Part shown: one piece after another, positions 1 through 42,827 of the stretch
How positions within the stretch are numbered: the stretch's first letter is position 1
Layout: every line of letters starts with the position of its first letter
Assembly (NCBI GenBank): GCA_051294375.1
Contig: JBJCIZ010000744.1
Coordinates: 1,106,262-1,170,261, forward strand
Source of the DNA: Paraspadella gotoi
Lineage: Eukaryota > Animalia > Chaetognatha
Direction: 5' to 3'
Length of the DNA stretch: 64,000 bases
Translations under genes and position numbers: made by a program
Notes under the pieces: model-generated
The model's input: only the letters and a program-made list of their open reading frames with translations
Told to the model about the DNA's origin: nothing
The model's database searches: none

Positions 1-650
1 TCATCATCTTTTGATGATTTTATCAGTTTTTTTATATTTTCACTTAGAAAACGTAAGAATTTTTAAAAGCTGTAATTATATTTCTTGTTTAACTTTTTAT
101 GCTCTATCAGAATCCATCAAAAAATTTTAAGATTTTAAAAAAATATTTTTTGCTCTATATAGTAATATAATATTTTTAATTAGGCGAGTACCCTCAGAAG
201 AAAGCATTTTTGACAAAAAATATTTTAATACCATAATCTATGGTCATGATAGATTATTTTTACGCTGTATCCATTAGCATTTAAATTTCATCGGCTATGG
301 CTACTAATAATTTAGCAAAAAATGAAGACGATTTCATGGCGATGAGATGAAAATAGAACAGCGATGAATCAATAGCGACTGTGGGAGATTAAACAAACAA
401 AAAAAACAACCCAACATCAATAAACCAATTTCAACAACTCGCAACAAAAAATGACAATCGATAACGACTAAAAAGAGAACGACGAAGCAAGAGAGAAAAC
501 ATACAAAGTACAACTAGATCGAAATATGACACTGTGGCGAATCCTAAATTCGGCCTCCCGTAAAGCTTGGTGAAACTCAGCTCGTCCCATTGGCTTGGAC
601 AGCTAAGTACTCGTTCACCAACCGTGAGTTCCGGGTTCAATCCCCTCACG

Positions 651-731
651 CTGGTTAAAGTGTGATGGTGTCGGCATAAAAACGCCAGTGACATGGGGTG
701 GTCAGTGCAGGTCCAAAGCCCTGAGCACCAG
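651..731 (+). ncRNA. Twister ribozyme, P5-type (family A, LTR1)
   Basis: P5 CTGGT/ACCAG; GTGT-GA-TGG...TAA-AAAC-GC (one P2 mismatch); P3 CAGTGAC/GTCAGTG; P4 CAGG/CCTG; L4 TCCA-AA-GC. Predicted cleavage at 677/678. Confidence 0.75.
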
Positions 732-1090
732 ATGTCGAGAGATGCCTCACACCCCAGGCATCGCATGTCCCCCGTTGCCATAAGTGGTGAGCCTTACTAT
801 CAAACACGCAACCGCTGCGTACCGTCGCTCACGTCGTTGCTTAAGGGTGTGCATCCTACTCCTATGCCCTAATCCTCACTCACTCTCTCACTGTGGCAAT
901 GAGTCCATCTACTCTCAAGACAGTCACTCTGGGCTTGACCCCAGTGTGCTGTCTTGGGGTGGGCATGTGTGGCAAATCCTAAATTCGCCTCCCGTATAGC
1001 TTGATGAAATTCAGCTCGTCCCATTGGCTTGGACAGCTAAGTACTCATTCACCAACCATGAGTTCCGGGTTCAATCCCCTCACGGTCACG

Positions 1091-1171
1091 CTGGTTAAAG
1101 TGTGATGGTGTCGGCATAAACACGCCAGTGACATGGGATGGTCCCTGCAGGTCCAAAGCCCTGAGCGCCAG
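1091..1171 (+). ncRNA. Twister ribozyme, P5-type (family A, LTR2)
   Basis: P5 CTGGT/GCCAG; P2 GTGT/ACAC perfect; GA-TGG pairs with L4 CCA; TAA; GC/GC pseudoknot; P4 CAGG/CCTG. Predicted cleavage at 1117/1118. Confidence 0.8.
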
Positions 1172-1243
1172 CTGTCGGGAGATGCCTCACACCCCAGGTA
1201 TAACAAATGTCCCCCCTATCAAATAACTCTCTCTCCTTCTAAC

Positions 1244-4200
1244 CTTCCGTCTCCATTCTTTCGGTCCCTCGTCGTTGAAATCCTCTTCCGCCCGAACGAT
1301 CGAAGTTCTGCTCGAGTTTTATCGAGTCGATCACTCGACCGCAGCCGCCGCCGCCGCTGCCGCCGCCGCCGCCGCGGTCGTCGTCGTCCACGTCGCCCGA
1401 GGAGTAGGCGGAACCGCGGAGGCCGCGACGGGCGGCGGCGCTGAGCGGGTTGCGGCCAGATCCCCTGTCGTCGATATCGTTCGGACCGTCGAAGCCTGTG
1501 AGGGGGGGGGGAGGGCAAAATTAATTGATAAGCCTCTTATTTTCTTATTTTATATTACTCACCGTGTAGTTCTATTGTATCGCCGGCGTTGATGGGTCCC
1601 GCGCTAAACCACTCCGGCTCAGTTTCGGAAGGTTTGAACCTGAGAAAAAAGGGGTAAATGAGTATTAATTAACAACATTAAATACCTTCAAAGCAATAGC
1701 ATAACAATTTAATTATACTCATTCGGAATACGGCAATATGAAAATTAGATTTAAGGTAATACCTTCTTCTATCGTGATGTCGTCCTCCGCCGCCTTCATT
1801 CCGACCTCGACGATGATCGTCCCTCTGATCCCGCATTCCGTCTCTGTCTCGCTCTCTGTCCCGTTCCCTCTCTCTCTCCCTCTCGTCTCTCTCCCTGTTC
1901 GAGAGGCTCCTAGAAAGCGGCGGCGGAGGCGAAGGAGCCTCGCCACGAAACCCGTTGTTACTATGCATATCCCGTCGATCGTCCATCCGCCTTCCTCCGT
2001 CTCTCTCTCTATCTCTCTCCCTGTCTCGATCTCTATCCTTTCGATCGTCCCTACGATCGAACCTTCCCCCGCCGTCTCTTCGATCCCCAGACGGCGAGGG
2101 ATCTCCGTTCCCTCGATCGAGAAAAGCCGAAGTCGGTCCTCGACCGAAGTCCCTCCCACCTCCGCCTCGAAGATCGGCAAAGTCTCGATGGAACGGCTCC
2201 TTTCCGGCGCCTCCGTTTCCGGCGCGGTCGGCGTCTCGGTCTCGGCGTTGCCGCTCGTTGCGTAATTCTCTCAATTCTCGGGGACCCACGCCGCGGTCCA
2301 TCCTTTCTCCTCTGTCCCCTCTCTCTCCCCTCCCGTTCCTCTCTCCCCTCCCGTCCCTCCTCCCTTCCTCCATCAACCCTCTCCTCGGCGGCGGCTCCTC
2401 CTCTCCTCCTCCTTCTCTCTCTCCTCTTCCTCTTCCTCCTCTTTTTCCTCTCCTCTCTCCTCCTCGAGCGGGCGGCGTCTCTCCGCGCGAATCCGGCGAG
2501 GAGGCGCCGCCGCGCTGTTGTTGCTGTTGCTGCTGACGGCGCCCTTCGGCCTTGCTGTTGCTGGAGGAAGAAGAGCCTGGGTCGTTGTTGCCGTTGTTAT
2601 TGGTTCGTCGACGTTTGTCTTCGGCTTCGGAGGCGCCGCTCGAGGCTGTGGCTTGACCCTTGGGAGATTTGGGGAAGAGGACTCGAATTTCTTTTTAAGA
2701 ATCTGAACCTGATAACTTATCTCATATGTTACTCATTTAGTAAATAAAACATTGGTTCATATTCTAGTTAATTTGAAATGATTAGGTTTACGACCATATT
2801 AAAAATGGGAGAAAACTAACGCCCATCGAACCATCGACTCGCCTCCATCGAACTAAGGCCCATCAAAACCATTGACTCACCTCCCATCAACTAAGGCCCC
2901 ATCAAACCATTGACTCACCTCCATCACCTAAGCCCTCAACCTTGACTCATCCATCAACTAAGGCCCATCAAACCATTGACTCGCCTCCATCGAACTAAGC
3001 CATCAAAACCATTGACTCACCTCCATCGAACTAAGTCCCATCGAAACCATCGACTCACCTCCATCGAACTAAGCGCCCATCAAAAACCATCGACTCACCT
3101 CCATCGAACTAAGGCCCAATCAAACCATTGGACTCACCTCCATCGAATAAGCCCATCGAACCATCGACTCACCTCCATCGAACTAAGGCCATCAAACCAT
3201 CGACTCACCTCCATCGAACTAAGGCCCATCAAACCATTGACTCACCTCCATCGAATTAAGGCCCATCAAACCATCGACTCACCTCCATCGAACTAATGCC
3301 CATAAACCATTGACTCACCTCCATCAACTAAGGCCCATCAAACCATTGACTCAGCCTCCATCGAAACATAAGGCCCATCAAACCATTGACTCACCTCCAT
3401 CAACTAGCCATCGAACCATCGACTCACCTCCATCGAACTAAGGCCCATCAAACCATTGACTCACCTCCATCGAACTAAGGCCCATCAAACCATTGACTCA
3501 CCTCCATCAAACTAAGGCCCATCGAACCATCGACTCACCTCCATCGAACTAAGGCCCATCAAACCATTGACTCACCTCCATCGAACTAAGTCCCATCGAA
3601 CCATCGACTCACCTCTATCGAACTAAGGCCCATCAAACCATTGACTTCACCTCCATCGAACTAAGGCCCATCAAACCATTGACTCACCTCCATCGAACTA
3701 AGGCCCATCGAACCATCGACTCACCTCCATCGAACTAAGGCCCATCAAACCATTGACTCACCTCCATCGAATTAAGGCCCATCAAACCATTGACTCACCT
3801 CCATCGATTAAGGCCCATCAAACCATGACTCACCTCCATCGAACTAAGGCCCATCAAACCATTGACTCACCTCCATCGAACTAAGGCCCATCAACCATTG
3901 ACTCACCTCCATCGAACTAAGGCCCATCGAACCATTGACTCACCTCCATCGAACTAAGGCCCATCGAACCATCGACTCACCTCCATCGAACTAAGGCCCA
4001 TCAAACCATTGACTCACCTCCATCGAACTAAGGCCCATCAAACCATTGACTCACCTCCATCGAACTAAGGCCCATCAAACATTGACTCACCTCCATCGAA
4101 CTAAGGCCCATCAAACCATTGATCACCTCCATCGAAACTAAGGCCCATCGAACCATTGACTCACCTCCATCGAACTAAGGCCCATCGAACCATTGACTCA

Positions 4201-7200
4201 CCTCCATCGAACTCGTCTCGCTGTCGTCGGTGAGGCCTGATTTGGTGATGGCGTGACAACCTTGACCGAAGCTGCGGCGTTGAGGACTCAGCACCACGTC
4301 CGAATCTGAGGAGTGGGGGGTGGGGGGGTAAAAAGGTGAGTAATAATAAAGGCAAGGTCAAAGGTTACAATCCTTCGATTTAATTTACATATCAAAGTTG
4401 CTCAGTTGGATCGTTAAAATACATTAACATTCCACACATTTGCCTACAATACATGTCATGTCATGACGTAATCAAATAACTTTTTTAATTTTGTAATATG
4501 TTTAATAAATTCAAAACGAATAAAACAAAAACCTCTCGCTCTCTTCGTCACTCCCCAAATCTTTTTCAATCAATTACTTCTAATATCTATTCATGGAATT
4601 GAGGCGGCGAAACTAATACTAATTATTTATTTAGTATTTACCAATTTTCTGAATGTCACTAAACTTGGCCCAAAACTGCCTTCTTCCTCCTTCTCCCTTT
4701 AAACTCACCCGTCGCCTTGACTCTCTCTTTAGGATCCAAAGCTTTCCTCTTCGTCGTCGTCGCCCCCATCTCCCTCTCCAACTCCATCGCGTCGCTGACG
4801 AGGCCACGCCCTCTCACGTCTCTTCTCTCCATCAATCCGTCGGCGTTGCGAAAATCCTTCGGGGAGTCACGGTCGGGCCCGTCGGCACCGCCGCCGCCGC
4901 CGCCGCCGCGACGCAGCGAAGGACCGTCGGAGCCGCGTCCGCCGCCGCCGTCGGGGTCGCCGCCGCCTCTAGACTCCCGGTGGTGATCGCGTGAATGGCG
5001 GTCGTCGTAAGAGTTGGAAGTCTGCAGAGGGTCATCCAGTCATTGGTAACACATTATTCGACATAATAAAATCCAATATGACGTAATTTATCATCGCAAA
5101 GAATTGATTATTGCCTCCATTGTCTTCTCCCCTCTTTTTTCTGATTGACCAATCAGAGAGGAGGCTTCCCTCAGCAAACTGACGGCGGGAAAACAAAAGA
5201 GGGAACGTGATCACTTTTCAACTTACCTTCAAGAAACCAACATCAAACTCCTTATGCACGACTCGTTAGTTGTTATATTGTTTATTACCTGCCTATTCTC
5301 TGCATAATCTACCTAATTTTCATGTCTATTATCATCACCCAAACGACCCAACGTGTTCTTATGCCAATAAAACTCCTCCCATTTCTCATGTCTAATTTCC
5401 TTCGATGTGGTGGAAGTAGTGAGATTCGAACCCACGCCCGTTTCTCTTAAACCTCCGGGTATCAAAAAGGAGAAATAAAAAACACCGGACCTTTTTAAAA
5501 CTTTCTAAAAAGGGTCCTAAACCTTAGGTCTTCTGGAAAGTGCGAAGAAAATTCGAACCAATAACTCCCGAACCTTTTTCAAAAGCTGCCAACGAATCCC
5601 TAATAACCTTTAAAAATTTATCATTAACTCCCGAACCTTTTCGAAATTTTTCATGAGGCTCATACAGTGACCACGAAACCTTATAACCATTTAAAAATTC
5701 CCCCCTAAGCCCGGCCTACCTTTTCGAAAGTGCCCATAAACCATCGCTCCGGATCCCAAAAGTTCCCATCGTCGGTGAAATGATCGTCCGTGAGACAATC
5801 AGGAATCCGTTGCGCCATTGGTGCCTTGGCCAGTTCCATCAGCAACAATCTGCAAATAAAAAAAAGGAGAATCGTTTTTCAGCAACAAAGATCGAAAACG
5901 AGGTTCAAAAATTACAAGTTCAAGCAAACGATGCCGAATCTGCCCACGATCATTACAGCGGTCAGTAGATGATGTTAGATTAAAAAAATCATAGGAGTTT
6001 TTTTATGTTTTTCATTTAAACTAATTTCCACTCAAACGATTCCATCGAAACTTGATTTCCAGCTCAATCACACACTTCTTTACCCAAACACAAAACACTT
6101 CAAGCGAATCGCTCAATCCACTCGTGAGTAATTGGCGTTTAAATCTAAGAAGGATATACAAACAGACAGACATACGGATTGACGGACAGAGAGACAAGAC
6201 TTTTTTTTTACATAATTTATTATAATTCGATGTTCCGACATAATCCAAGTGTTTTACCGGCAAGATTTTCGAACCGACGTGCCGACAAAGTGGGAGCAGG
6301 AATCTGCTGCAAGCGGATCCGGCTAAAAACTTACCTCGGGTAAACTTACCTATCGTACTGATGTCTCTCCTTCCTCCAAATCTCCCGCCTCTCTTCCTCC
6401 CTCCTCTCTTCCTCCTTCTCCTCGGCGCTCTTCCAAACTTCTTCCTCGGCGTCGTCCTCTTTCTCCACGACGACGCCGTCTCGCGTGGAAAAGACGCCCA
6501 CACGAAACACGTCGCCGGATACTCCGTTTCCTCCGGCGCCGCTTTCTCCGGCGGCCGGGGCGCTGTCGTCGAAAAAGTTGGTGCCGCCGGCGCCGCCGCC
6601 GTCGCCGCCGCCGCCGCCGGAAAAGTCGCGACCTCTGACGACTTCGACTGAGGTGAAGAAATATACAAATAAAACTTCAAAAAAGTTAATTAAAGATTGC
6701 GAATAAGTTAATAATTTAAATGTTGCTGTCAATGATGGAATACGAAAAAAATATTTGGATTCAACTGCGGGGGAACGCAGTTTTTTTTTTAATACAATAA
6801 TTTATCTCGTATCTACCCTCGTTAATCTATTAACATTTCTTGTTTAAAAAATACTGTTCTCTTTTTTTAAGAAGACTTGGTAGCATTGTGTATGGTTTGT
6901 TAATGTTTGTACTGTATAAACCATGCTAGATTCGTATAAAATCCTATATATTGATAAATTAAATAATTCATATAAGCCCACCTCCTTTAAAGACGTCAAC
7001 GGTGCTGCCATCTAGAATACCAACACCGCCGCCGCCGAAGACTCCGCCCTCATTTACGCCGCCGCCGCCGCTTCCGCCGCCGTCTTCTGGACCTCGATCG
7101 GAGTCAGAGCCGTTATTCAACGAGGGGCGGGGGGAGTCGGACGGCGTCGGGGAGGCTGAGAGAGAAGAGAGAGAGAGAGAGAGATAATGAGGTAAAAAGT

Positions 7201-12469: not shown

Positions 12470-15400
12470 CCACCGCCGGAAAGGACCGAAGAGCCGGTCG
12501 CCGCCGCCGACGATTTAGCGTCGGCGTTGGGCCTTTGACCAAACGACTGGCCGACCGTCACGCTCGTCTGAATCGGAAAAAAAAAACAACCCGTAAATCT
12601 CATTTGCATATTGCGGTATGAGAGTAGAAGAGGTAAGAAGAATTCATTTATTTTTCAAAAAGAAATTAGCTCTCAAAATACATTCAACGAGAGAGCGAGT
12701 GAAATAGAGAGTTTTGAACTTCTAAAAAAGGAAATGTACACCCTAGTCTAAAAAAGGAAATGTACACCCTTGTCTAAAAAAGGAAATGTACACCCTAGTC
12801 TAAAAAAGGAAATGTACACCCTAGTCTAAAAAAGGAAATGGACACCCTAGTCTAAAAAAGGAAATGGACACCCTAGTCTTGCTAAAACGAAACGTTAATC
12901 AAGAAATCGAAAATGCTTCAAAAAAATGGGAAGCCCCCCCGCCCCTTCCCTCTCCATCGACCCCCCCCTCTGCTGCCCCCCTTAAAAATTCACCCACGAA
13001 CCTGGCCCCCGGCCTTCCCGTAAGGTTGCGCGGCGGCGGCGGCTGCGGCGGCGCAGTTGTTGGGGTTGTAGGCGGCGCCGAGTCCGTAGAGTTGACCGCA
13101 GTATTTCTCGTCGTCGAGATCATCCTCGAAGAAGAGGCGACGCATCTTGAAGAAGGCGGCGCCCGTGAGGAGAGAGTCGCTGCCCGCTTGGTGTTGAGGG
13201 CCTGGGAGGGGGGGGGAGGGGGAAGGAAGGGCAGAACGAGAGAGAGAGTGGGGAGGGGAGTTTATTTATCAGGCTAATCGAGTTGTAGAACTTCGTAGTG
13301 TATTTATGTTTAATACAATTATAACGTAACATTAATATTAACGTTGTTACGTTATAAAAAAGGCTGTCCGATGACTTTTTTTTAAGTTTCCGAGACAAAC
13401 GATGTTGACACACACTCTCTCTCTCTCTCTCTCTCTCACCAATCCTCTCCAGCTCTAGCTGATCGGCGACCTCTTGCAATCCGCCCTTGAGATTCTTGCA
13501 ACTTTTCATGATGTACTTGACGTCGTAGATGAGGGGAAAGAAAATACGGAGGATTTCGAAAAATTCTTCCTCGTCCTCGGGAAGGTCGACGTCCGTCAAG
13601 AGTCTGGGGGACATGGATTCATTATTAGTTTTATTAATTTTTATTAACAATAAATAATATTCTATCAAATATGCGTGAAATATTAATTTATTTTTTTTGA
13701 AAATTTATCACAATTCTTACCGAGTCTAAACCCGAAAAAGAAAAATATTTACCCCAATCTATTTTTAGATAGTATAACAATAAAATTAACAAACATATAC
13801 AATAGAATCGACTCTTGATATATCACCTATCGAATTTAATTCAAATTTAAACCATTTAACTACATTTTAATGCAACAACAAATTGACAAAAAAAAGGGGG
13901 TTTTTAAGCGAGTTCTGGGACTGAAAAGAGAGGAACTTGTCTTTCTCACCTGAGCAAATATCCAAAGTCGTATCCTGAATGGAAGGAGAGCCACTTGACG
14001 GAATCGGAAAGAACTAAGCCTGACGTCATCAGAGATTCTGCGAACTCACGCACTTCGATGCCTTTTCAATGGGGGAGAGAAGTGGACGGGTAAAGTGGGG
14101 CGGAAAGGGGGGGGGCGATGTATGGATAAAGATTGAAGACTTAAGGAAGAGGGTGGATCTCTCTCTCTCTCTAATAGATATTCTTTATCCCTCTCCCATC
14201 CTCGTCTCTGTCTCACTTTCTCCCTCTCTCTGTGTCTTTCATTCTCTCTCTCTCTCTGTCGCGCTTTTCCAACCTTGTTCCTCGTGCTTTTGAAACTGGA
14301 TGCCTGATTTCTGCAGAAGATCGATTGAGTCCTGCGCGTACATGTCTTCGTTGAGGCTGAACTTGAAGTTAAATTGGTAAGTGAAGGTCGGGGGCGTCTC
14401 TCCCTTTTCGTCCATGAAGGTCAGGCCAAGCTGGAGGGAAATACCATGTATGGTCACACAGAAAATTCACTTCATAATAACTGATATAATGACATAAAAA
14501 GTCAGTCAATGACAATAGTGACAACCTTCATTACTCTTTTGTTTTATGTTAAAAATTCGTATCAAACCATGAAAAAAATAATATGAAATACTACAATATG
14601 CAAATGATATTGGGCGATGGAAGAGCAAGAAACGTTTAATCCAACCCTAAGATCCCATTCTTCTACATAACCCACACCCCCTCCTTTGTTACTCCTTGCC
14701 ATCTGCACCTCCCAAAATCCCACTTTTCTGCACCTGGATGATTTTAAGGAGATCCACGTTGCACCTGAGGAGTTGATGTTGATAATCGGACGCGGATCGA
14801 AATTCTCCGATCGGTCGCGCCACCACACCTTGGTTCAAATGGAATGAGGTTGAGATGAATGAAATGGAATGGAATAAAGTAGAGAATGGAATGGAATGGA
14901 ATCATGTAGAGAGAGGAGTTAAATAGAATGAAGTAGAGAATGGAATGGAAAGAAGTCGAGAGAGGAATGGAATGAAGGAGAGAGAGGAGTGAAATGGCAT
15001 AGAATATAATGAGTGGAATGAAATGATCTTCTTCAGCAAAACTCGGCCGTCTAGTATTCCTTAGTCTGTCTCTATAGATCATTGGTTAAGACGAGTTTGA
15101 AAGTTAGTTCTGTGATTAGTCATCTATTTGATGTGCGAATTTTAGGACGAACAATAAAATCACATAGCCAACCAAGCCCGTCCCATTCGGTTGATTATAT
15201 TTTAGCCCATCCAAAGTCAGGAGCAAGTTAGCTTAGTTATTGAACGAATGAATTATTTTTATATTGATGGTTTTTTTACATAATATTATGTCTATTGTCT
15301 AATTGAATGAAGTCGTTAACCCCCCCCAAAACTTTGCACTGAGCAAAGTTTGTACTTTAAACAATTATTATACATTGGCTGTACCAATAAACTAACAAAT

Positions 15401-16191: not shown

Positions 16192-16438
16192 TGTGGCGAA
16201 TCCTAAATTCGCCTCCCCGATAGCTTGGTGAAACTCATGTCATCCCATTAGCTTGGACAGCTTCGTTAAACAACCATGAGTTCCGGGTTCAATCCCCTCC
16301 CGACCACGCCAAGTGTGATGGTGTCAGCATAAACACGCCAGGGACATGGGGTGGTCACTGCAGGTCCAAAGCCTTGAGCGCCAGCTCTCGGGAGATGCCG
16401 GAAATCCCCGACATCACACAAGACTCCTCGTTGCCATA
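16192..16438 (+). mobile_element. Solo LTR-like copy, family A (tRNA head and twister)
   Basis: TGTGGCG...GTTGCCATA flanked by 4-bp TSD TCGT (16188-16191 and 16439-16442). B box GGTTCAATCC. Twister core at 16313-16385 with the 5' P5 strand eroded. Confidence 0.85.
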
Positions 16439-19122: not shown

Positions 19123-21681
19123 AACAAACCTTAGTTTGAGGTTTGACGAAAGCGACGGGGGGCGAATTGGCAAACGTAGGAGCGCCGCCGCTGACGCCCT
19201 CTTTGAATTTGCTCTCGTTTCCGGCGGCGGAGGTCGGCCGAGAGGAAGGGCCGGACGGGGAAGCGCCGGAAATCGGCGCCGTCGAAGAAAGACCGAACGG
19301 CGTCGAGGCGAAAGGAGCCGCGGAGAGGCCGCCACCGCCGGGACTCAGGGCGCCTTGGTTGGGAATTAATTAATTAATTAATTACATAATGAATTAGTTA
19401 TGTATTAAGTTGATACAACCAATATGTATTAATGCAAATGTATGGCAACCGTTTCAAAATTTACTAAGTTTTAAAGGACAACAAACTTTAATCATTTTCG
19501 TTTAAGAGTGGATAAGGCGCTAAATTGGCTGAAGACTACTATGCGTATCTTCTGTGCCCCTTCAGCAGCAATAGAACGGGTCCAGGGCTTGGAACCAGGC
19601 TTGAGGGGTTTTTCCACGCCCCAAATGCGGTTTATGGACGTCCTCACGCTTCCCGCAGTGCATGTATCTTTGAGGATGGAAATGCTCATGAGCTCAAGGT
19701 GTCATTCTCATAGGCGGGGGATGAACTTGTTGCAATGCCCGACTACAAAGACGATTTTCACCTCAACGGACTTGCGCTCACCGTGAAGGGCGACGCCGCA
19801 ATTGGGGCATCGACCGAAGGTCGTCGCCGTGGAGACGAACGGCGCCGTCAGTGGCGCCACGGAGGGAGCAGAGGCGCCGCCTACCGAACGAACCAGGGAG
19901 CGGTTAGGCCTGAGGTTGTGGGGGGGGGAGAGTAGAAGGGGAGGAGGGGAGAGAAGAGGAGGGTGAGTGGGAGAGAGAAGAGAAGGTGAAGGGGAAATAG
20001 AAAGAGAAGTTTGGGGGAGAAGACAGAGATTTGAGAGATAGAAAGAGAAAGATTTGAGAGATAGAGAAAGATTTGAGAGATAGTAAGAGAAGGTGGAGAA
20101 AGAGAGACAACAATGAATGTCTATTCCGTTGTGAAATGAGCTCTTCTGGACAGAAATATTATATTCTTCATTATACTTATCCCAGAATATTAAAAGTCAT
20201 TTGCAATTATTTTGACGAAACGTCCAAGTTTCACCCTCCCCGCCCTTCCTTCACCCCCCTACCCTCTTTCACCCCCCTACCCTTCTTCTCACCCCCTACC
20301 CTTCCTTCACCCCCTTGCCCTTCTTTCACCCCTACCCTTCCTCACCTCCCCTTCCCCACACCTTCATTCACCCCCCTACCCTTCCTTCATCCCCCCACCT
20401 CCGAATCCGGTCATCGACGCCTCGAAACATCCCGCCCCCACTTTAGGGACGCTGGTGCTGAGACTCCCCGCCGGCGACATCTGGGCGCCCGAGTGCAGCC
20501 GATGGCGGCGCCGCTCGGAGGAAGGCCGCTCATGGCGCCGTAAGGGATCGGGGAAGAGGCCGTGCGGGAACGGTGGGCGACTGGAGGATGGGGAAGGGAG
20601 TCTTTTTTCGAGGGGGGGGGGAAAGAGGGAAAGGAGTTCATTAACCACATTTGCATATTGTCGTATTTCGACCAAGTATCCAAAAGATTCTGTTCATGCC
20701 TTGAAAAGTTTAAAATTGTTATTTCACGATGGCAAATGATTAATTGATCATGTTTGTTTCTGGTTTCATCAATAGTATAATAATTAGTAATTTGATATAA
20801 TTTATTACGATAATCTCTTATCGCGCGGATCAACTTACTGGTAGACAGCGCGGGCGAGGTCGGGTACGGTAAGGGATGACCGGTCGCCATTTCGTGGAAA
20901 TGCCTGCGATGAGGCGCGGGAGATTGAGTCAGTTGTCAGAAACATTTATCAAATTATATATAATATTATGGGCGGTATAAATCACACCACCTCACGTCCA
21001 TCGTCGTTCAGCCAAACATCAGGCATCACAGGCAACCCCGCTGTTTCCATAATATTCAAATTATATTCACAAACTTTAAATTCGGCAAAATTTATCTCCG
21101 TTCGTCTAATAGATGTGATTTTTGTCCAACCTACCTTCATGCGTTCAAACACAGCCCGTCTTTCTTTTCCCAGCCACAAGCCCATCTTTCCCCATCAACC
21201 CACCTCTCTTCGTCCATCTCCAGACTGGATTCTGATTCGCTAAGATGTCGACAGAGATTCTCTCGTCTCTCCGTCTCGAGTTGGAGTTTTCGCTGAAGGA
21301 GAAAAGAGGAAGACGGGAGAAGGAAGAGGAGAGCAGGAAGAAGAGGAAAAAGAGGAAGAGGGCGGAGAGAAAGAAGAGGGGAGGAGGAAGAGGAGAAAGA
21401 AGGGGAAAAGGGGAGGGGGATGAAGAGGAGGAAGAGAGAAGGATGAGAAAATTAGAAGACGGCTTTAGAATTTTCAAGAAACGTTTAATCCAAAATCTCT
21501 TTCAAGATTTAAATTTGATCTTTTGTTGATCCAACAAGACTCATATAGCCTCCATCCAAAGCCTGTCCAAAGTCAGGGGCAAGATAGCTTATTTATTAAA
21601 TGAATGGATAATTTTTATATTGGTTGTACTAATTTCATAAGATCATTTTAAATAATCATCTCTTACACTTATTGTCCCCCT

Positions 21682-21738
<57 letters not shown>

Positions 21739-24700
21739 TGCAATCTCAAATTTTCCTCCCTGATCTGCTTCTCCTCCTGCATGTACTGCGCCATTTTATC
21801 CGTGTGTTCCTTTTGAGCGACTCGGAGACTTTCTCGCAACCTGGAATTATTAATAATGATTATTAATACTTGTGAATAAGACGCTAAGCTTCACGGCACC
21901 AATGGGATCGATCCCAGTACCTAATAGTCATGAGCTAATGGCTTTACTCAATGAGCCACGGGTTCACAACTAAGAGTCATATTTATTGCGCAATGCCCGA
22001 CTATCTACCGATTAATATTAATTAATACCTAATAAAATGTAATAATGCCAGGAGCGGACATTTAGCACAACTTCAAATTCCCCGCCCTTTTTACTCTTTC
22101 ATTAACCTGTGCACTTCGTTCCTTAAATTCTGAATGTGTTGGGTCAGATTTCCGGCGGTTTGGAGGCTGATGGCCGCCGATTCGTCCGGTTCCGGCGGCG
22201 GTGGCATCGAGAGGCGGAGACCGCCGCTGCCGGGAGGAGGGCGGAGACCGGGAGGCGCTGGGGAGAAAAATTGAACGCTTGTGAGATAGAGAGAGAGAGA
22301 GACATTTGAAATTGCAGGCGAGAGAGCGAAAGAGCAAGAGAGCGCGAGAGAGTGAGAGAAAGAGAGAACCTCCTATTCTCCTTACCGAACGGATGATGCA
22401 AGGATCCACCGGAACTTCCGCTCGAATGGCGTCTTTCCCGTCGACTCAGCGGAGCGAAGGGAGACCCCAGTGGAGGCGGTCTGAAGTAAGAAGCAATATT
22501 TTCAGTTTAGGAAAAAAGATAAAAAAAGTTTTTTTCAGATAAATATAATGTTTCTTGGCAAGCTTCCTCTTTCTTTCTTTCTTTTTTTCTTTCTTTCCTA
22601 ATTCTATATCATATTTATTCAATACTTAATATCTTTTAAATTACATTTCCCCTGCAATAAGTCCGATTCCGATCGCGAGTTTCATCCAAGTCCCCTTCCC
22701 TTCCAAGTCATCTTCCCTTCCAAGTCCCCATGCCTTCCAAGGCCTCTTCCCTTCCAAGTCCCCTTCCCTTCCAAGTCCCCTCCCCAACCCGCCTCTCCCC
22801 CCCAATCTACCCACCCTAATCCCAGACTGGCGTTGTGAGATGCGTTGAGTCCGACCGGCGGCGGCGGCGGCGTCGCGTCCAGCATGAGGGCGTCGCTGGG
22901 CGACGGCGGCGTCGACACGGGTTCGTTCAATTTCTCCTGCAGCATCCTGCAGCAAGGAGAGGGGGGAAAGACGGGAGAGTTTTGTAGCCAAAACCTCAAG
23001 CATCTAATGGTTGAGGGAGTGGCCCCTTTATCAATTTGACATGCTATTTAATTTGTTAATTAATTAATTGGTCAATTTGTTCTGTGATTATCTTGTAAAA
23101 AGGAATGTAGGCCTGTCCATTGTCTCAAGTAAGTTAGATGGATGAATAAATTTTATATTTATTTTCATAGAGTGAGGAAGGAGATTTCAGGTCATTATCC
23201 ACAACAACAACAACAACAACAACCCCCTCTCACCTCTTCTCCGCCTCAAGCTTCTCCATTCTCTTCCAAAGTCGATTAACGAGAGACTCTTGCTCTTGCT
23301 CCAACGCGTTCTCCAGCTCGATCTTCTCTCGTCTCAATTGCTCCAGCGTAATCTGAGGACGGAGGAGCTAAAGTTAAAGGTTAAAGCGAATGTATGTCTG
23401 GCTGGGTCTGTCATATCTTGTAAGGACGGAGGCCTAAACCCATCATCGCCTGTCCAAAGTTAGGGGCAAGATGATTGGTTTCTTTAATGAATTACTAATT
23501 GTACCTATTTTAGAGAATACAATTCTCAATAAATAAATATTTTTTTGTAAATTACATCAACCATGTGTGACGTGATTAACTCATTTTCCGATGCACATTC
23601 GGATGGTCTTTCCTCATCGCCTTTGCCTTTCAATTCTCACTCTTGTGAAACTCTCGCTCTTAAAAAGTGAAGCTCTTCACGACATGACATGACATTGTCA
23701 TAATCGTTTCATCTTCGGCTTCGCATTCAAATTATTAACTTAACATTTTTTAGATATAATTTCTCGAGTTAAAATATCAAAATCCAATTAGAAACTTCTC
23801 ATCAACGAAGAGAGAGAAAAAAAAATCGAGAAGAATCCTCAACCCTCATTTTTTCTTCTTTTTTTTCCCCCGCCATTTGTCCTCTAAAAAAGATTATCCA
23901 ATTAGCAACAAAAAAATGTTTTGTCTAAACATATAATTTAAGCCAATTAGCGGGAAAAAGTTCATCGTCCCGTCAGGATTTCCGTAAAATATTTTTAGTC
24001 GGATCTGCTTATCAGCAGATCCCGACTCTATAACTCACTTTTTATAACTCACTTTTTCGGTCCGTCGGTCCGCCCCTCAATATTGTCGGGCACACACTTA
24101 TATCATGTCAGAACATCGAATTATGATAAATTATGCAAAAAAAATGTCCGTCCGTCCGTCTGTCCGGTCCGTCCGTCGTCCGTCCGTCCCACCTTAGCAA
24201 AAAACACCAATTACTCGTGATTGGATGGATGGATTTAAATGAAATTTTGTGTGTGGATAGGTAAGTGTGTGATTGAGCTGGATATTAAGTTTCGATGGAA
24301 TCGTCCGAGTGGAAATGAGTTTAAATGGAAAAAACAAAAAAAAATATTCACTATTTGAACACCAATTGCTCATGAGTGGATGGGCTGATTGACCTGGAAT
24401 TTTTGTATTGTGGGTAGGAAAGTGTGTGATTGAACAGGAAATCAAGTTTCGATGGAATAGTTTGAGTGGAAATGAGTTTAAATAAAAAAAACAAAAAACC
24501 TGTTTTACTAATTGATTATGCTTCTTTTTCCTTTTATATTAAATGTATCTGCAGGATGTATTAATAAATCAAATTAATTAATCAGTTAATTAATCAATTA
24601 GTAAATAAATTAATCAATAATTAATTAATTAGTCAATCAATCCGTCCATCCGTCCCATCTTAGCAAAAAGCTCCAATAACTCGTGATTGGCTGGTTGGAT

Positions 24701-27085: not shown

Positions 27086-29218
27086 GATATTATTTTGGTG
27101 AACCAAATCTGTCCAATTATTAAAGCGCCGTTTTTTCTTCATATTTTTCAAATCAAAATTTGTTTTCCTTTTTTTAAATACTTCAGCTTCACTGGTCAAT
27201 TAGGAAATTCAAAGGAAAAAAAATCCACTCCTGATTCCGCCGTAATTAAAAAAAAATAATAATATTTAAAGGACGATTTATCTGCGCACAAAAAAAAATT
27301 AAATAAAAAAAAACTTGAGAAAAGATCCAACTCGGATTTTCGTCGTTTATCGAATTTCGTCGCTAAAAAAACAAAAAAACAAACATTGTCTACGTCTTCG
27401 CGTCACCAATTTCCCGCGCATCGCAAAACAACAACAAAAACACTTACAACAAGAAAAATCCAATACAAGAAAAAGGAAATGGGGAACGAGTTGGCGATCC
27501 CGGCCGGCGGAGCCTTCGGCCCGGAAGAGATCAAGAGGCTGAAGAAAAGATTCAAGAAATTGGACGCGGATGGAAGCGGAACTTTGAGCGTGGATGAGAT
27601 TATGGCATTGCCCAATGTGAGAGGGATATGGGGGGGGAAGAGGGTTTAAAGGGGGGGCTGAAAAGGAGGATTAAGGAGTAAATCGATTTTGGATAAGGCG
27701 CGAAGTGGGCTGAATTTCTTTTAACCCCTCTTGCACCCTAATGGTCATGAGGTAATCCCGGTACTTAATGGTCATGAGCTGATGGTATTACTCACCGGGT
27801 TACAACTGAAGATGTCATGCTTATAGGCGGGGTGAAGGGGACGAGGGGAAGTTGAACAGGAGGAAAGGGAAAAAAATAAAAAGAGGAAGAGAGAAAGACT
27901 TTTTTTTAAGAGAGATTGTATTTATGACACGCACTGCATCGCAATTCCGTCTTTTATTCCTTAGTTTTTCGAAATTCCTGAATGCGGCGCTAGCAGTCCC
28001 TTAGATTTGAGGTTTTTTTGTCTTAACAAATGAGCAACCAACTATTGGCAAATTATATGCAATTTCAACGTAAGTGGGACAGACATACTGACGGACCGAC
28101 CGAAAAGTGACTTATACTCGCGGCGCAACTAATTATGGGACAAAGATAAAAAGATTATAGGGATGGAAATGGGGGGAAAAAAAGAGGTCCGCAATCAGTA
28201 GATGAGAATAGAAAGAGAGCAAAGAAAAAAAAATAGAGAAGAGAAGGAAAGGAAGTAAAATAAAAACTGAAGCGGTTTGAAGAAGAAGCCGAGGACAAGA
28301 AGAAGGCGAGAGCAAGAATGAAGATCGATTCATTGAGGTTAAACTGATTTATGCCAACGGGGAGACGTGGTTGATGCCCGGCGTGTGAGACAGCTGCCGC
28401 TCAGAGCTTTGGACCTGCATTGACCACCCTATGTCACTGGCGTGTTTATACCGGCACTAACACAACTAAACAGCGTGACCGTGAGGGGATTTAACCCAGA
28501 ACTCACCCAACAAAACAAACTGATCTAATTTAATCTAAACAGATCTAATCTTCACCCAAAAACAAAATAAAAACTAATCTAACCTAAACTAATCTAATCT
28601 TAACCCATCAAAAAACCAAACTAAACTAATCTAATCTAAACTGATCTAATCTTCACCCAAAAACAAAATAGAAACTAATCTAATCTTCACCAATCAAAAA
28701 AACAAACTGATCTAAACGAATCTAATCTAAACTGATCTAATCTTTATCCAACAACAACGACCAAACAGATTGCGGAGAATCCTTTGGTTCGTCGCGTGGT
28801 CGACGTCTTCGACACAAACGGTGACGGAGAGTTGGACTTCAAGGAATTCATCAATGGTTTGGCATCTATTGCAAACAGGGCGGACAAGAACTCAAAGCTG
28901 CAATTCGCCTTCAAGTATGAGAGAAAGAGAGAGATTAAAAAGAAATTGAAAAAAAAAAGAGGGATGAGAGAGAGAGACCCTCAACTTCTCCATCAAACAT
29001 CCCCCAAAATCTTCACTCCAGCATCTACGACATCGACAAAGACGGGTTCATCACCAACGGCGAACTCTTCCGCGTCCTAAAGGCGATGGTGGGCAACAAC
29101 CTCAAGGACACGCAATTGCAACAGGTCGTCGACAAGACCATCATGATCCACGACAAGGTGAGTCGAGAAAAATTTATTCTGCGCGTCAATCCATTGGCCA
29201 ACGCCTCGTAAAACGTTC

Positions 29219-35000: not shown

Positions 35001-38000
35001 AAGTAAGAGAATATGGCAACGGGAGGATAGCCTGTGATACCCGGGGCGCGGGGTATCTCACCAACTGGCGTAGGGGCTGCGGACCCTCAGTGACCGCCTC
35101 CTGTCACTGGCATGTTTATACCGGCACCGTCACATTTAAGCCAGAACCGGGATACCCAGGGATTGAACCCGGGACGCACGGATGGAATGAGATGATTTAG
35201 CCTGCTCAGCCATTGAGACGAGGCTGAGGACGGACAGCAGTGAGGCAGCTTTAAGTCTTGCTGCCACAAGAAACTCATTATTTTTTCTCTCGATTCAATG
35301 TTTGAAATAAATTCAACACTCCTGCCACCGCCACCGCCACACGCACTCTCTCTCTCTCTCTTCCTCTCTTCTCACCTCCTGCCCGCTTATATCCACCACG
35401 TGCGTGTCCAGATCGAAAAAGGTCAGAATCCCCAAATGATCGATGATCGCCAATCGAGTCGAGACGCAATTAAGACTCATCGTCTGCGGCCGAGAATTCA
35501 AAGCGTACTTCCGCTGCAGCGTTAGATGCGGGACGGTGTAACGGTGCAGAGCGCCGCTCTCCCGCGCCACAAGCAGCAGCCTGTCGCTGGCGGCGACGCT
35601 GCAGATAGGATCGTCGGTCTCCTCCGCCGCTTTGACGTAATCCAGCTCCGACTCGGGAACTCCGGACGGGATGTCGTCCACGTGATGAAGTCTCTCCGTC
35701 CCTTGACGCTTCTTTCCGCCGACGTCGCCGATCCCGTGACCCACGCGGGTCTCGCCAAGCAGACCAGCGGCTCCGCCGCGACTGCTGCCGCCTTTGGACG
35801 CTTCGGCCGCGGCGAGCGATCGATACTGCCAGGCGTAGAAAGCCTGGCGCGAAGCGACGAAGACGTGAGATCGCGTCATCGCCAGAAACACGGGCTCGAT
35901 ATCGATGTATTTATTATCGAGCGGGGTTCCGATCGCGTTGCAGAGAACGAGGACGTAAGCGCCGGGAGCTGCAGCGCCCGACGCCGCGGAGCCGTTGCCT
36001 GGCGCTGGCGCTGCTCTGGTGGCCAGAACGCAGTGATCTCCGCATGCGGCCACGCCCATGAGATTCCTGACGAACTTGATGTATTTCTCGTTATTCTTCG
36101 TGTCCCAAAAGACGACGCAATGCTCTTGTCGAGCCGGCTTGGTGTAGGAGTAGACGACCGTGTTGGCCAAGTAGCCCCACTTGTAGTCTGGACGGATGTT
36201 GGCAAAGTAGATGAAGGAGTCGACGGCCAGAGCGATGCGGAGGGAACCCCCTTCCCAGGAGCATGAGGTCACCTGGTTATAGGATATATATTTCTTTTAT
36301 TTACAGTATATATAGTTTTTAATTCAATTAATAAATAAGCTATCATGCCCAAGACATTGGACAATGGACACTGTCCATTGACAGGCTAAGGTAGGTTAAA
36401 GCCTCTCACTAGGTAATACTACATATAGCAGGACTCTGCAAGATTTCAATCAAAACTCGCTCACAGTCAAAGAGTTAAGGGAATTAATAGCCTGGTACTG
36501 TGGAAGTGAATAAACGAGACTGTGAGAGAGTCTTTGTTGAAAGCTTGCAGGAACCTGCGACGTCTAAAGCCTGTCCAAAGTCAGGGGCAAGATAGCTGAT
36601 TTAGAATAAATGGATAATTTTATATTGGTTGTATCAATTTCATATTATATAAGTAAGTATATTTTTAAACACATCCACGATCTAACCTGTTTTCCCGGGA
36701 CCTTCAACGTCCTCAGATGTTCTCCCATCGCAGAATAGAACTGCACCACGTTGATGTCTTTGTCCGCGGCGCCGGGCAAGGCACCCGCGGGCGCCCGCTG
36801 CGAGCCGGCAATGGCCAGGACGCTGCCTAATGGAAGGAAGGATTGGTTGGAAAAAGGGATAAGGTGATTGGGGAAGCAAGATTTTTAAAAAGTTTATTAT
36901 GGACACTGTCCACAATGACCAAAGTAAAATGCTCCAAGCAAAAATATCTACCTAATAAAATCTAACATGGGTTGGGGTCCAGTATCTCTTTCTCTTTATG
37001 AGTAAAGACAAAGGAAAAGTCCAAAAAATGGTCAAAAAAAGTATATTCTCTGAGAGGGAGCTCTCGAGCTGAAGTAGAACCCAAGACAGAACTAAAATCT
37101 CTCTCTTTGCTCCTTCTTCTGTCGTCACTCGATGAGGAGGGAGGGAAAGGGAGGAGGAAGAGGGAAGAGAAATGGGGGGAATCCGATGGAATCTACTCAT
37201 CCCCTCTATCCGGAAACTCAATTCAGTTTGCCCTAACACTCGGTCAAAACACACGCACTCTCTCTCTCCCTCACTCCTTCCCTCCCTCACCCGTATGATT
37301 CCACTGTATCTGGGCCACGCCCATCCCGGTGTCCAAGAGCACGGGATCGTCGTCGGCCTCGTCCCTCATAATCTGACATCGCCCGTTGTCGAAACAGATG
37401 GCGAGACACGGACAACGCGGGGCCGCGTATCCCTCCGACCCGTCGTACCACTCGATGCCCGCCAGGTGGACGGCGGAGGTGACGTCCGTCAGGCAGACCA
37501 CGCCCAGTTTGGCGACGAAGTTTCCTTGGTTGTCGAAAATCTGGACGTCGCCGTTGGTCATGCCGAAGAGGAGGGAGCGACTATCGGGAGACCATTCCAC
37601 TTTGGAGAGTTGGAGGCCTGGGGAGGAGGAGGAGGAGGAGGGAAGGGAAAATGGAAGGAGGATCCAAGTGATCACATCGCGTGAAGGAGCGATCACACAA
37701 TTATTAGATTTATGGTGGACTAAAATCCACCAACCGTTCATCAGAGGCCATTGGTGCCGGAGGCAAGTCATTCGGCTCCCAACCCAAGGGTCCGGGGTTC
37801 TAGCCAAGAGGTCGCCTAGCAGTTAAGAGGGACGGGGCGCTTAACCCGCCTGTAACACGGTGTTACAGCCTGATCCGAAGCTCAGGGACTGCTTATATTG
37901 AACGGTTCTGTCACTAACACATAATAATAATCACTGTCTCTTCAGATTGTTTTCAAGTATTCAAAATATATTTAGTATTTCTTATCTCTGTCTCTGTTTT

Positions 38001-39600: not shown

Positions 39601-40298
39601 CGCGGGATTATTGTGGGGGGGGGGAGAGAGAGAGAGAAGAGAGAGAAGAGAGAGAAGAGAGAGAGAGACGGGTCCTTGTGGTTAGGTAGTTTTCTTTTGT
39701 GGTTGAATTTCTTATGCTATCGTATCGCGGTCGATTTTTCCCCCTGTTTTTTCTAAACGCGCTCAAATGTTTAGTTTCGATTAAATATTAATTTCGCCGT
39801 GTTTTTCTTTGTCGATTATAAATAGTTTTCGATCTTTTTTCAGGCACGAAGGTCATTGTATATATTTGATATACGCTTCAATCTAAAACAAAATCGGGTA
39901 AACTACGTTTTATACAATGAACTCTCTCTCTCTTCCCACCCTTTCTCTTCCTTTCATCGTTACAGACTCGAGTCTTCGATCACAAAATAACCAATTCACT
40001 TGTTGACAAATACTAATTACTAAAAATTAGTCCCGGATATCAATCAACAAATCAAATCTTTTTTTTCGCTAACGGGTAAAAACACGCGGAAAAACGTCTT
40101 TCCCGAAGATTTAACCATTAGCCCCCTCCCCTCGCCCCCCCAAAAAAGGGACGAACGATGCCCTCCCCCAAAAAAGCATCAACTTCGACGAGACTCGAAT
40201 TTAAAAAAAAAACAAAAAAACTCGACGATGTGGTTACTCAAAAATAACGACGATATAAATCCAAACCTCATCCAAACAATAAACGAGTTTCTCTCCCC

Positions 40299-42470: not shown

Positions 42471-42827
42471 CGTGACGAGGACGAAGACGACGACGACGAC
42501 GTAGACGACGATGAAGAAGATTCGAGCGTCGACACAAATTAATAAATAAGGTTTCTCGAGATATAAGGTTAATCTAAAATTTAACGATCAACAGTTTTTT
42601 TGTTTTTTTTTATAAAAATAAAACAAAAAATTGATAAAAACGGAAAAATTAAATCGTGATAACAAATTAGCAGTGAATAAAAAACTATGAACGTTTTAAC
42701 TGTTTCATAGTAGAAAGATAACAAATCATAACAATAACATTATTCCTCTTAATTGTAATAAACTGAAGTCTATCTATAGATGTAAACCCCGACCACCCAC
42801 GCGACTAATCCCTCGTTACAGCCCCCA

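What the first reader, a model, noticed from the sequence alone, without database searches (positions are those of the whole stretch)
533..1216. Candidate twister retrozyme: a mini LTR element whose LTRs each carry a Pol III tRNA-like head and a twister ribozyme
Seen: two ~250-bp direct repeats starting TGTGGC (the first ends GCCATA), a PBS-like TGG motif 2 nt after LTR1, a G-rich tract before LTR2, and solo copies elsewhere with 4-bp TSDs. Each LTR reads A-box-like sequence, B box GGTTCAATCC, P5-type twister fold, then a hairpin. Known: plant LTR retrozymes have this layout with hammerhead ribozymes and produce circular RNAs, Cassandra TRIMs carry a 5S Pol III promoter in their LTRs, and twister cleavage leaves 5'-OH and 2',3'-cyclic phosphate ends that RtcB ligates. 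Inference: a transcript from LTR1 would self-cleave at 677/678 and 1117/1118 to release a 440-nt monomer. That monomer could circularise and be mobilised by an autonomous LTR retrotransposon. I do not know of a described element combining LTR termini, a tRNA-type promoter and a twister.
Basis: partly seen in the sequence, partly recalled or inferred. Interest (0 to 1): 0.92.

Follow-up and report, generated by a model that had tools for sequence, protein, structure and literature searches.

The report
Twister-ribozyme mini LTR retrotransposon
An animal genome carries many copies of a tiny non-coding LTR retroelement whose terminal repeats hold a tRNA-type promoter motif followed by a conserved twister-ribozyme fold, which likely cuts the RNA into a 440-nt piece predicted to circularise, a layout I found described only in plants and with a different ribozyme.

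Summary
Two ~250-bp repeats (533-782, 968-1215; 90% identical) flank a 185-bp interior with a PBS-like start and a G tract. Three more copies lie in the window; both complete solo copies have 4-bp TSDs. LTR2 lacks its last ~10 bp, so this locus is decayed and has no TSD. Each LTR has box B, a weak box A and a P5-type twister fold. It scores below Rfam's thresholds, but the catalytic bases are kept and a divergent subfamily shows four compensatory pairs, one in a pseudoknot. LTR plus tRNA-like promoter is known: this fits Helenus (Kojima 2024). The ribozyme is new. In the papers I could search, LTR retrozymes are plant elements with hammerheads, and animal retrozymes lack LTR, PBS and PPT. Most likely mechanism (0.55): Pol III transcript, cleavage in both LTRs, a 440-nt circle, copying by a Gypsy-type partner. 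Cleavage, circle, promoter and partner are all untested, and a competing hairpin may slow cleavage. By eye, two published wasp Helenus LTRs hold a hammerhead the paper does not mention, at the same position, which suggests the design arose twice.

The parts
533..782 (+). 5' LTR (TGTGGC...GCCATA)
   Evidence: same termini as the two solo copies with 4-bp TSDs
591..598 (+). box A-like motif (TRGCY+YGG as in Helenus); degenerate here, canonical in the 35 kb copy
   Evidence: motif definition from PMC10886601 section 3.5
634..644 (+). box B in a T-arm-like hairpin
651..731 (+). P5-type twister fold of LTR1 (core 660-723), predicted cut 677/678; 20 of 22 core pairs intact
741..762 (+). 7-bp hairpin in the 3' part of the LTR
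783..967 (+). 185-bp non-coding interior, more structured than shuffles (z -2.9)
   Evidence: recurs in other contigs; single copy in the window
785..797 (+). PBS-like motif; primer tRNA not assigned
   Evidence: very high summed contig depth at 784-815; 8 of the first 10 nt match the tRNA-Trp-type PBS in Fig. S2 of PMC10886601
956..963 (+). G-rich polypurine tract 4 nt before the 3' LTR
968..1215 (+). 3' LTR, lacking the last ~10 bp; box B 1068-1078
   Evidence: loose ends at 1216 show other copies continue with the usual end
1091..1171 (+). P5-type twister fold of LTR2 (core 1100-1163), predicted cut 1117/1118; 21 of 22 core pairs intact
678..1117 (+). predicted 440-nt monomer between the two cut sites
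   Evidence: inferred; folds better than shuffles (circular z -3.8; linear z -4.4, antisense z -2.2)
16192..16438 (+). solo LTR with TSD TCGT; twister core 16313-16376
35012..35268 (-). solo LTR of a divergent subfamily (71% identical) with TSD TTCT, canonical box A and 22 of 22 twister core pairs; source of the four compensatory pairs
28350..28506 (-). 5'-truncated LTR copy with decayed twister (3 of 22 pairs broken)
37744..37895 (+). separate family: tRNA-like head followed by an independent P5 twister (37816-37895); no LTR termini or TSD assigned

Best explanation
This is a decayed copy of a multi-copy, non-coding LTR mini-retrotransposon of the Helenus kind whose LTRs carry a conserved P5-type twister fold just behind the tRNA-like head, and it likely works as a retrozyme: a predicted Pol III transcript would be cut in both LTRs, and the 440-nt piece would be ligated into a circle and copied by an inferred Gypsy-type partner. 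Shown: LTR termini, 4-bp TSDs, PBS-like and PPT motifs, box B, no T run, twister core with compensatory changes. Inferred steps: (1) Pol III starts near 580 in LTR1 and reads through because the element has no T run; (2) both twisters cut at U^A, leaving 5'-OH and 2',3'-cyclic phosphate; (3) the monomer has no terminal repeat, so normal strand transfer is not possible, but its two ends are the two halves of one twister and can pair, placing them for an RtcB-type ligase; (4) a tRNA primes at the PBS and reverse transcription runs more than once round the circle to rebuild two LTRs; (5) a Gypsy-type integrase inserts it with a 4-bp TSD.
For: LTR nature: 2 of 2 complete solo copies have 4-bp TSDs and shared termini; 39 contigs in run X2 continue behind 1216 with the usual LTR end and 46 have unrelated sequence before 968. 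Linkage: contig 23 of run X9 covers 770-1018 with 35 differences; contig 9 of run X10 joins a divergent-subfamily head, an LTR end and the same PBS collinearly; summed depth at 784-815 is 278,140 in X2 against 239-307 on the flanks. Twister: 88.9% of 135 cells paired against 34-43% when slid; 4 of 27 pairs change on both sides, in P2, pseudoknot T1 and twice in P4; chance of 4 or more such pairs from 16 random substitutions 0.00086 in my simulation; core 73-75% identical between subfamilies against 47-56% upstream and 54-69% downstream. At the three positions where this locus breaks a stem, 93-98% of summed depth in X2 carries a base that pairs. A sixth, independent twister behind a tRNA-like head scores 31.3 bits with a model not trained on it. 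No run of 3 T in 683 nt. Precedents: plant LTR retrozymes (PMC4918200); twister ends are ligated by RtcB in the engineered Tornado system (bioRxiv 2023.07.11.548538).
Against: No RNA evidence of any kind. Rfam scores are below threshold. All four compensatory pairs come from one copy, that is one lineage split. Isolated ribozyme regions do not fold better than shuffles (z -0.3 to -0.9). In all five copies the RNA made up to the cut site is predicted to pair the spacer with the first P2 strand, and the nested twister fold is 7.8-20.7 kcal/mol worse than the best fold, pseudoknots not counted, so cleavage may be slow. P1 is 2 bp; cleavage without P1 is reported as inefficient (PMC8501958). The 35 kb copy changes one otherwise conserved L4 adenine. 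A circle keeps a whole twister and must avoid being cut again. T-run absence is weak against dinucleotide shuffles (P 0.135 for the 435-nt unit; 0.0075 against mononucleotide shuffles). The X9 contig has only 13 nt on the LTR1 side. No autonomous partner was seen (0 of 12 ORFs scanned match a retrotransposon family).
Confidence: 0.55

Rival explanations
1. Same element and an active twister, but no circle: only one of the two twisters cuts a given transcript, setting one RNA end (replacing the T-run of ordinary Helenus, or removing the head), and the terminal repeat that remains allows ordinary LTR strand transfer.
For: A competing hairpin is predicted in every copy and could make cleavage partial. 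The twister sits where most Helenus LTRs have a T run (supplement parts 1, 7, 8, 9 read by eye). The first T4 lies 10-102 nt outside the copies, so the 3' end is otherwise undefined. Twister variants process the 5' end of Perere-3 LINEs without a circle (PMC8501958).
Against: Both twisters have the same sequence and near context, so a selective switch has to be assumed. The only described elements with a ribozyme in both LTRs make circles.
Confidence: 0.27
2. A Helenus-type TRIM formed by insertion of a tRNA-head plus twister SINE into an LTR; the twister is a passenger that no longer cuts and is kept only as structure or by descent.
For: Kojima proposes SINE insertion as the origin of Helenus. 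The same head-plus-twister module occurs without clear LTR ends at 37744-37895, and a third, decayed twister-like repeat family is common in the window. Rfam scores are low.
Against: The compensatory changes separate two subfamilies that both have LTR termini and TSDs, so the fold was kept within the LTR lineage, including a pseudoknot pair; catalytic positions are invariant or nearly so.
Confidence: 0.13
3. Two SINE-like copies inserted 185 bp apart by chance; there is no LTR element.
For: No TSD around the pair, LTRs differ at 18 of 240 positions, the interior and the LTR-PBS junction occur once in the window.
Against: Fixed 4-bp TSDs, precise ends and no A tail in solo copies; PBS-like and PPT motifs at the expected places; the interior start is about 1000-fold deeper than the flanks and is joined to LTRs of two subfamilies in other contigs.
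Confidence: 0.05

Closest known systems
Helenus TRIMs / TRIMp3 (Kojima 2024, PMC10886601)
   Same: Two short LTRs with tRNA-like box A/B, PBS, PPT, non-coding interior, 4-bp TSD in animals, size inside the 311-1263 bp range, solo LTRs.
   Different: No ribozyme is described (ribozyme occurs once, in the reference list; twister 0). Most Helenus LTRs I read have a T run behind the head; this one has none and carries a twister there. Twister loop motifs gave 1 hit in Data S1, in an interior without twister context. PBS not among those listed.
Plant LTR retrozymes (Cervera 2016, PMC4918200)
   Same: Self-cleaving ribozyme in each LTR, PBS, PPT, 4-bp TSD, monomer without R region, structured RNA.
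   Different: Hammerhead type III versus twister P5; plants versus animal; LTR 300-400 bp and interior 300-600 bp versus 250 and 185; tRNA-Met PBS; no tRNA-like Pol III head described; circles shown there, untested here.
Animal non-LTR retrozymes (PMC7761336; bioRxiv 2026.07.22.740005)
   Same: Animal, non-autonomous, ribozyme-delimited monomers that form circles.
   Different: Tandem repeats with type I hammerheads, no LTR, PBS or PPT, linked to Penelope-like elements.
Schistosoma hammerhead SINE-like repeats and Perere-3 twister variants (PMC6765202, PMC8501958)
   Same: Pol III-type promoter followed by a ribozyme; twister used by a retrotransposon.
   Different: Non-LTR elements; the Perere-3 twisters are P1-type at the 5' end of an autonomous LINE.
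Helenus-2_SyJa and Helenus-2_SyUm (Data S1 of PMC10886601)
   Same: By eye, tRNA-like head followed by a self-cleaving ribozyme core in the LTR, no T4 run in the LTR, Trp-type PBS.
   Different: Type III hammerhead core, not twister; not noted in the paper; their interiors do hold T4 runs; not run through any tool.
Tornado circular RNA expression system (engineered; bioRxiv 2023.07.11.548538)
   Same: Ribozyme cuts at both ends leave 5'-OH and cyclic phosphate ends that pair and are ligated by RtcB.
   Different: Synthetic; the ribozymes are removed from the circle, whereas here a whole twister would remain.

Membership tests
Helenus TRIM | Two LTRs around a short non-coding interior, 311-1263 bp | tested here: met
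   683 bp, LTR2 lacking ~10 bp
Helenus TRIM | tRNA-like box A (TRGCY, YGG) and box B (GGTTC) in the LTR | tested here: met
   591-598 and 634-644; canonical box A in the 35 kb copy; ARAGORN finds no full tRNA
Helenus TRIM | 4-bp TSD in animals | tested here: met
   2 of 2 complete solo LTRs; host is an animal (WDR35 77-81% identical to hemichordate, mollusc and annelid proteins); not testable for the truncated pair
Helenus TRIM | PBS complementary to a host tRNA 3' end | tested here: inconclusive
   TGG 2 nt after LTR1; 8 of 10 nt match the Trp-type PBS of Fig. S2; host tRNAs not available
Helenus TRIM | PPT before the 3' LTR | tested here: met
   G tract 956-963
Helenus TRIM | Gypsy partner sharing the PBS; Pol III transcription | not testable with these tools
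   no genome held; no RNA data; not validated for Helenus itself
LTR retrozyme | Type III hammerhead in each LTR | tested here: not met
   no hammerhead among the Rfam matches in 400-1400; twister fold instead
LTR retrozyme | PBS, PPT and 4-bp TSD; monomer between two cut sites without R | tested here: met
   cut sites are predicted
LTR retrozyme | Plant host, tRNA-Met PBS, 300-400 bp LTR | tested here: not met
   animal host, 250-bp LTR; definition
LTR retrozyme | Self-cleavage and accumulation of circular RNA | not testable with these tools
   needs in vitro and RNA experiments
Twister ribozyme (Rfam clan CL00120) | Reaches the Rfam gathering score | tested here: not met
   24.1 of 67.2 bits (P1 model), 19.3 of 37.6 bits (P5 model); 0 hits
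Twister ribozyme (Rfam clan CL00120) | Conserved L1, L2 and L4 nucleotides with P2, P4 and pseudoknots T1, T2 | tested here: met
   match to the element table in PMC8501958 with a compensated T1 pair
Twister ribozyme (Rfam clan CL00120) | Covariation of stems | tested here: met
   4 of 27 pairs two-sided, all from one divergent copy; further different but paired stems in the independent copy at 37816
Twister ribozyme (Rfam clan CL00120) | Self-cleavage at U^A | not testable with these tools
   bench assay needed

The most novel reading that the evidence does not exclude
Animals have Pol III-driven LTR retrozymes: TRIMs with a tRNA-like promoter have more than once replaced their T-run with a self-cleaving ribozyme (twister here, hammerhead in Synergus Helenus-2) and spread through small RNA circles, a natural counterpart of the engineered Tornado system and the first twister-based retrozyme.
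Probability: 0.42. Interest if true: 0.9.

Novelty: new variant of a known kind. Interest (0 to 1): 0.74.

Why it matters
Reviews state that animal retrozymes lack LTR, PBS and PPT and that retrozymes seem to have no promoter of their own (PMC7761336; a later plant study did find LTR promoter activity, PMC9695139); twister has few assigned roles in eukaryotes (PMC8501958). This element joins three lines (Helenus TRIMs, retrozymes, twister biology) in one 680-bp unit. It would show that ribozymes in LTRs are interchangeable, extend LTR retrozymes to animals, and give a small, testable model for reverse transcription from a circular template and for the proposed link between genomic retrozymes and viroid-like RNAs. 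It also suggests rescreening all TRIM libraries for ribozymes, since one published set already seems to hold unnoticed hammerheads.

Tried and rejected
Genome-wide search: no genome is held. Rfam at gathering score: 0 hits in 64 kb. ARAGORN: 0 tRNAs. Pattern scan of metagenome contigs: 5 matches, none aligning to the element by BLAST and none scoring with the twister model, so chance; viral contigs: 0. Earlier findings of this scan: 0 in three look-ups. Sequencing runs: no RNA holder on record; run X9 is only guessed to be RNA, so its depth was not used as evidence of expression. Contig depth was used only as a rough sign of repetition, not as a copy number. Autonomous partner in the window: 12 of the 51 ORFs of 130 aa or more were scanned with Pfam, none matched a retrotransposon family; weak nhmmer hits at 21014, 45041 and 53983 (E 0.5-6.5) were dropped. 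MFE folding of the ribozyme alone is uninformative because it omits pseudoknots. Rfam's P1-type alignment at 674-745 was rejected in favour of P5 because it needs several non-standard pairs, while the P5 reading pairs throughout and covaries. LTR ends for the 37.8 kb twister: one TG..TA candidate with a 4-bp match, no better than chance. Host phylum was not resolved.

Full report
Observation. The sequence shows two direct repeats, 533-782 and 968-1215, 89.96% identical over 249 columns, with 18 substitutions in 240 aligned positions. BLAST and nhmmer find five copies of the repeat in the 64-kb window: these two, 16192-16438 (+), 35012-35268 (-) and a 5'-truncated copy at 28350-28506 (-). Both complete solo copies start TGTGGC, end GCCATA and are flanked by 4-bp duplications, TCGT and TTCT. 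LTR2 stops about 10 bp short of the usual end, so the pair has no TSD; in run X2, 39 contigs continue behind 1216 with the usual end. The locus is therefore a decayed copy. TGG follows LTR1 after 2 nt, and a G tract (956-963) precedes LTR2. The 185-bp interior and the LTR-PBS junction occur once in the window. The host is an animal: a WDR35 exon is 77-81% identical to its best matches in hemichordates, molluscs, annelids and echinoderms, with no close relative among the 120 rows listed of 1082. No genome is held.

Is the two-LTR unit real? Contigs of four public runs were laid on 400-1350 (4 of the 10 runs listed). In X2 the summed depth is 239-307 on the flanks, 46,000-525,000 over the LTRs, 278,140 over 784-815 and 1,956-6,812 over 848-943. 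The tool warns that this is no copy number, so I take it only as showing that LTR and interior start are highly repeated and that this locus's mid-interior is a minor variant. Contig 23 of X9 covers 770-1018 with 35 differences and 7 gaps: it bridges interior to LTR2 (51 nt on the LTR side) but has only 13 nt of LTR1. Contig 9 of X10 (a small-share run) carries pieces 619-644 and 769-813 in collinear order, with a loose end that resembles the head of the 35 kb subfamily, so LTR, PBS and interior start are joined in a second subfamily. No listed piece spans the whole unit, and only 29 pieces were shown, 6,863 more not. An intact two-LTR copy with a TSD was not seen; this remains open.

Promoter motifs. 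Box B (GGTTCAATCC) is intact in 4 of 5 copies. Box A is canonical in the 35 kb copy only; LTR1, LTR2 and the 16 kb copy match the looser TRGCY plus YGG pattern that Kojima gives for Helenus. ARAGORN finds no tRNA. The 683-nt element has no run of three T; for the non-redundant 435-nt unit P is 0.0075 against mononucleotide and 0.135 against dinucleotide shuffles, modest support for Pol III read-through. The first T4 lies 10-102 nt beyond the copies.

Twister. Rfam gives nothing at gathering score and weak hits in E-value mode: twister-P1 24.1 bits at 674-745, Twister-P5 19.3 bits at 1101-1163. Read as P5, the core has every conserved element listed in Table 1 of PMC8501958 (section 17 read): UAA in L1, the G-A on the other L1 strand, GC in L2, and the L4 loop, with one G-C of pseudoknot T1 replaced by U-A. 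A descriptor finds 4 of the 5 copies and nothing in 40 shuffled windows. On the five copies 88.9% of 135 cells pair, against 34-43% with slid partners; 4 of 27 pairs change on both sides (P2, T1, two in P4), reached by 5 of 500 shuffles. All four come from the 35 kb copy, so this is one lineage split; in my simple simulation 16 random substitutions give four or more such pairs with frequency 0.00086. The core is more conserved between subfamilies (73-75%) than the parts before (47-56%) and after it (54-69%), gaps counted as differences. LTR1 breaks 2 and LTR2 breaks 1 of 22 core pairs; at those three positions 93-98% of summed depth in X2 has a base that pairs (40 of 151 difference rows shown). 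A model built on the five copies finds a sixth twister at 37816-37895 (31.3 bits, rough E 5e-7, next hit 10.8 bits) with different P3, P4 and P5 sequences that all pair, a 3-bp P2 with one mismatch, and a tRNA-like head upstream; a relaxed descriptor finds it and 4 LTR copies, against 7 hits in 30 shuffled windows. Against fast cleavage: P1 is 2 bp; isolated ribozyme regions have z of -0.3 to -0.9; and in all five copies the RNA up to the cut site can pair the spacer with the first P2 strand, the nested twister fold being 7.8-20.7 kcal/mol above the best fold with pseudoknots and tertiary contacts not counted.

Mechanism. Shown are the anatomy and the conserved fold. Inferred: Pol III starts near 580 and reads through; cuts at 677/678 and 1117/1118 free a 440-nt RNA with 5'-OH and cyclic-phosphate ends (end chemistry as). 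This RNA has no terminal repeat, which is the situation Cervera et al. resolve by circularisation for plant retrozymes (passages). Its ends are the two halves of one twister and can pair. The monomer folds better than shuffles (circular z -3.8; linear -4.4, antisense -2.2), and its best fold hides the first P2 strand, which could protect a circle from being cut again. A tRNA would prime at the PBS and a Gypsy-type enzyme set, suggested by the 4-bp TSD (Helenus discussion), would rebuild and insert two LTRs. I give this 0.55. The main rival (0.27) is single-end processing with ordinary strand transfer; a passenger ribozyme (0.13) and two adjacent SINEs (0.05) fit worse.

Comparison with what is known. 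This element meets the Helenus features I could test. The paper does not describe a ribozyme. Twister loop motifs gave 0 hits and 1, without twister context; line breaks can hide matches. One search turned up something else: the LTRs of Helenus-2_SyJa and Helenus-2_SyUm show, by eye, a type III hammerhead core (motif recalled, not run through a tool) directly behind the tRNA-like head and no T4 run in the LTR, though their interiors have T4 runs. It is not a member of the LTR retrozymes as defined (hammerhead, plants), but it likely works like one. Passages of PMC7761336 and of bioRxiv 2026.07.22.740005 state that animal retrozymes are non-LTR and lack PBS and PPT. Twisters in retroelements are reported for non-LTR Perere-3 and RTE elements (passages). 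Passages of PMC6765202 describe Pol III hammerhead SINE-like repeats in schistosomes; PMC12859917 adds nothing on ribozymes.

Novelty. Eight full-text searches (listings seen, papers opened as named above) found no LTR element with a twister and no animal LTR retrozyme. The library holds only openly licensed PMC papers and bioRxiv; Repbase, Dfam and subscription journals were not searchable, and bioRxiv supplements were not seen. No relatives were found in metagenome or viral contigs or in earlier findings. Verdict: a real feature, a new variant that combines two known kinds; interest 0.74, held down by the lack of any RNA or bench evidence and of an intact two-LTR copy.

Noticed in passing
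PMC10886601 Data S1, Helenus-2_SyJa-LTR and Helenus-2_SyUm-LTR: Both gall-wasp-inquiline Helenus LTRs show by eye a type III hammerhead core with complementary loops just behind the tRNA-like head; the paper does not mention it.
   Followed up: partly
window 37744-37895 (+): A second family with a tRNA-like head and an independent P5 twister (31.3 bits, all P3/P4/P5 pairs kept with different sequence), single copy in the window, framed by a 9-bp inverted repeat; no LTR ends or TSD assigned.
   Followed up: partly
window 38167-38242 (+), 38423-38476 (-), 23413-23474 (+), 21556-21640, 33443-33549, 36566-36644, 41912-42296: A third, AT-rich, decayed repeat family with a twister-P5-like core (Rfam Twister-P5 22.7 bits at 38178-38234), short P3 and a changed T2 pair; about ten fragments in the window.
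   Followed up: partly
window 35012-35268 (-): The solo LTR with the best-paired twister lies in a WDR35 intron on the gene's sense strand, so the pre-mRNA would carry the ribozyme fold; one conserved L4 base is changed.
   Followed up: no
window 764-790 with 888-910 and 956-966: In the predicted monomer the LTR 3' end and PBS start pair with an interior stretch resembling the LTR 5' end and with the G tract, which could hide or present the priming sites.
   Followed up: no
window 32091-39681 (-), 13123-13704 (-), 40610-41011 (-): Host genes: WDR35/IFT121, a CAF1-family ribonuclease and NDUFB10.
   Followed up: no
window 2814-4213 and 42827-43942: Minisatellites: 37-bp unit in 38 copies and 16-bp unit in 72 copies.
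   Followed up: no
window ~51700-52270 and ~62300-62900: A near-identical duplicated segment with an open frame on the minus strand, about 10.6 kb apart.
   Followed up: no
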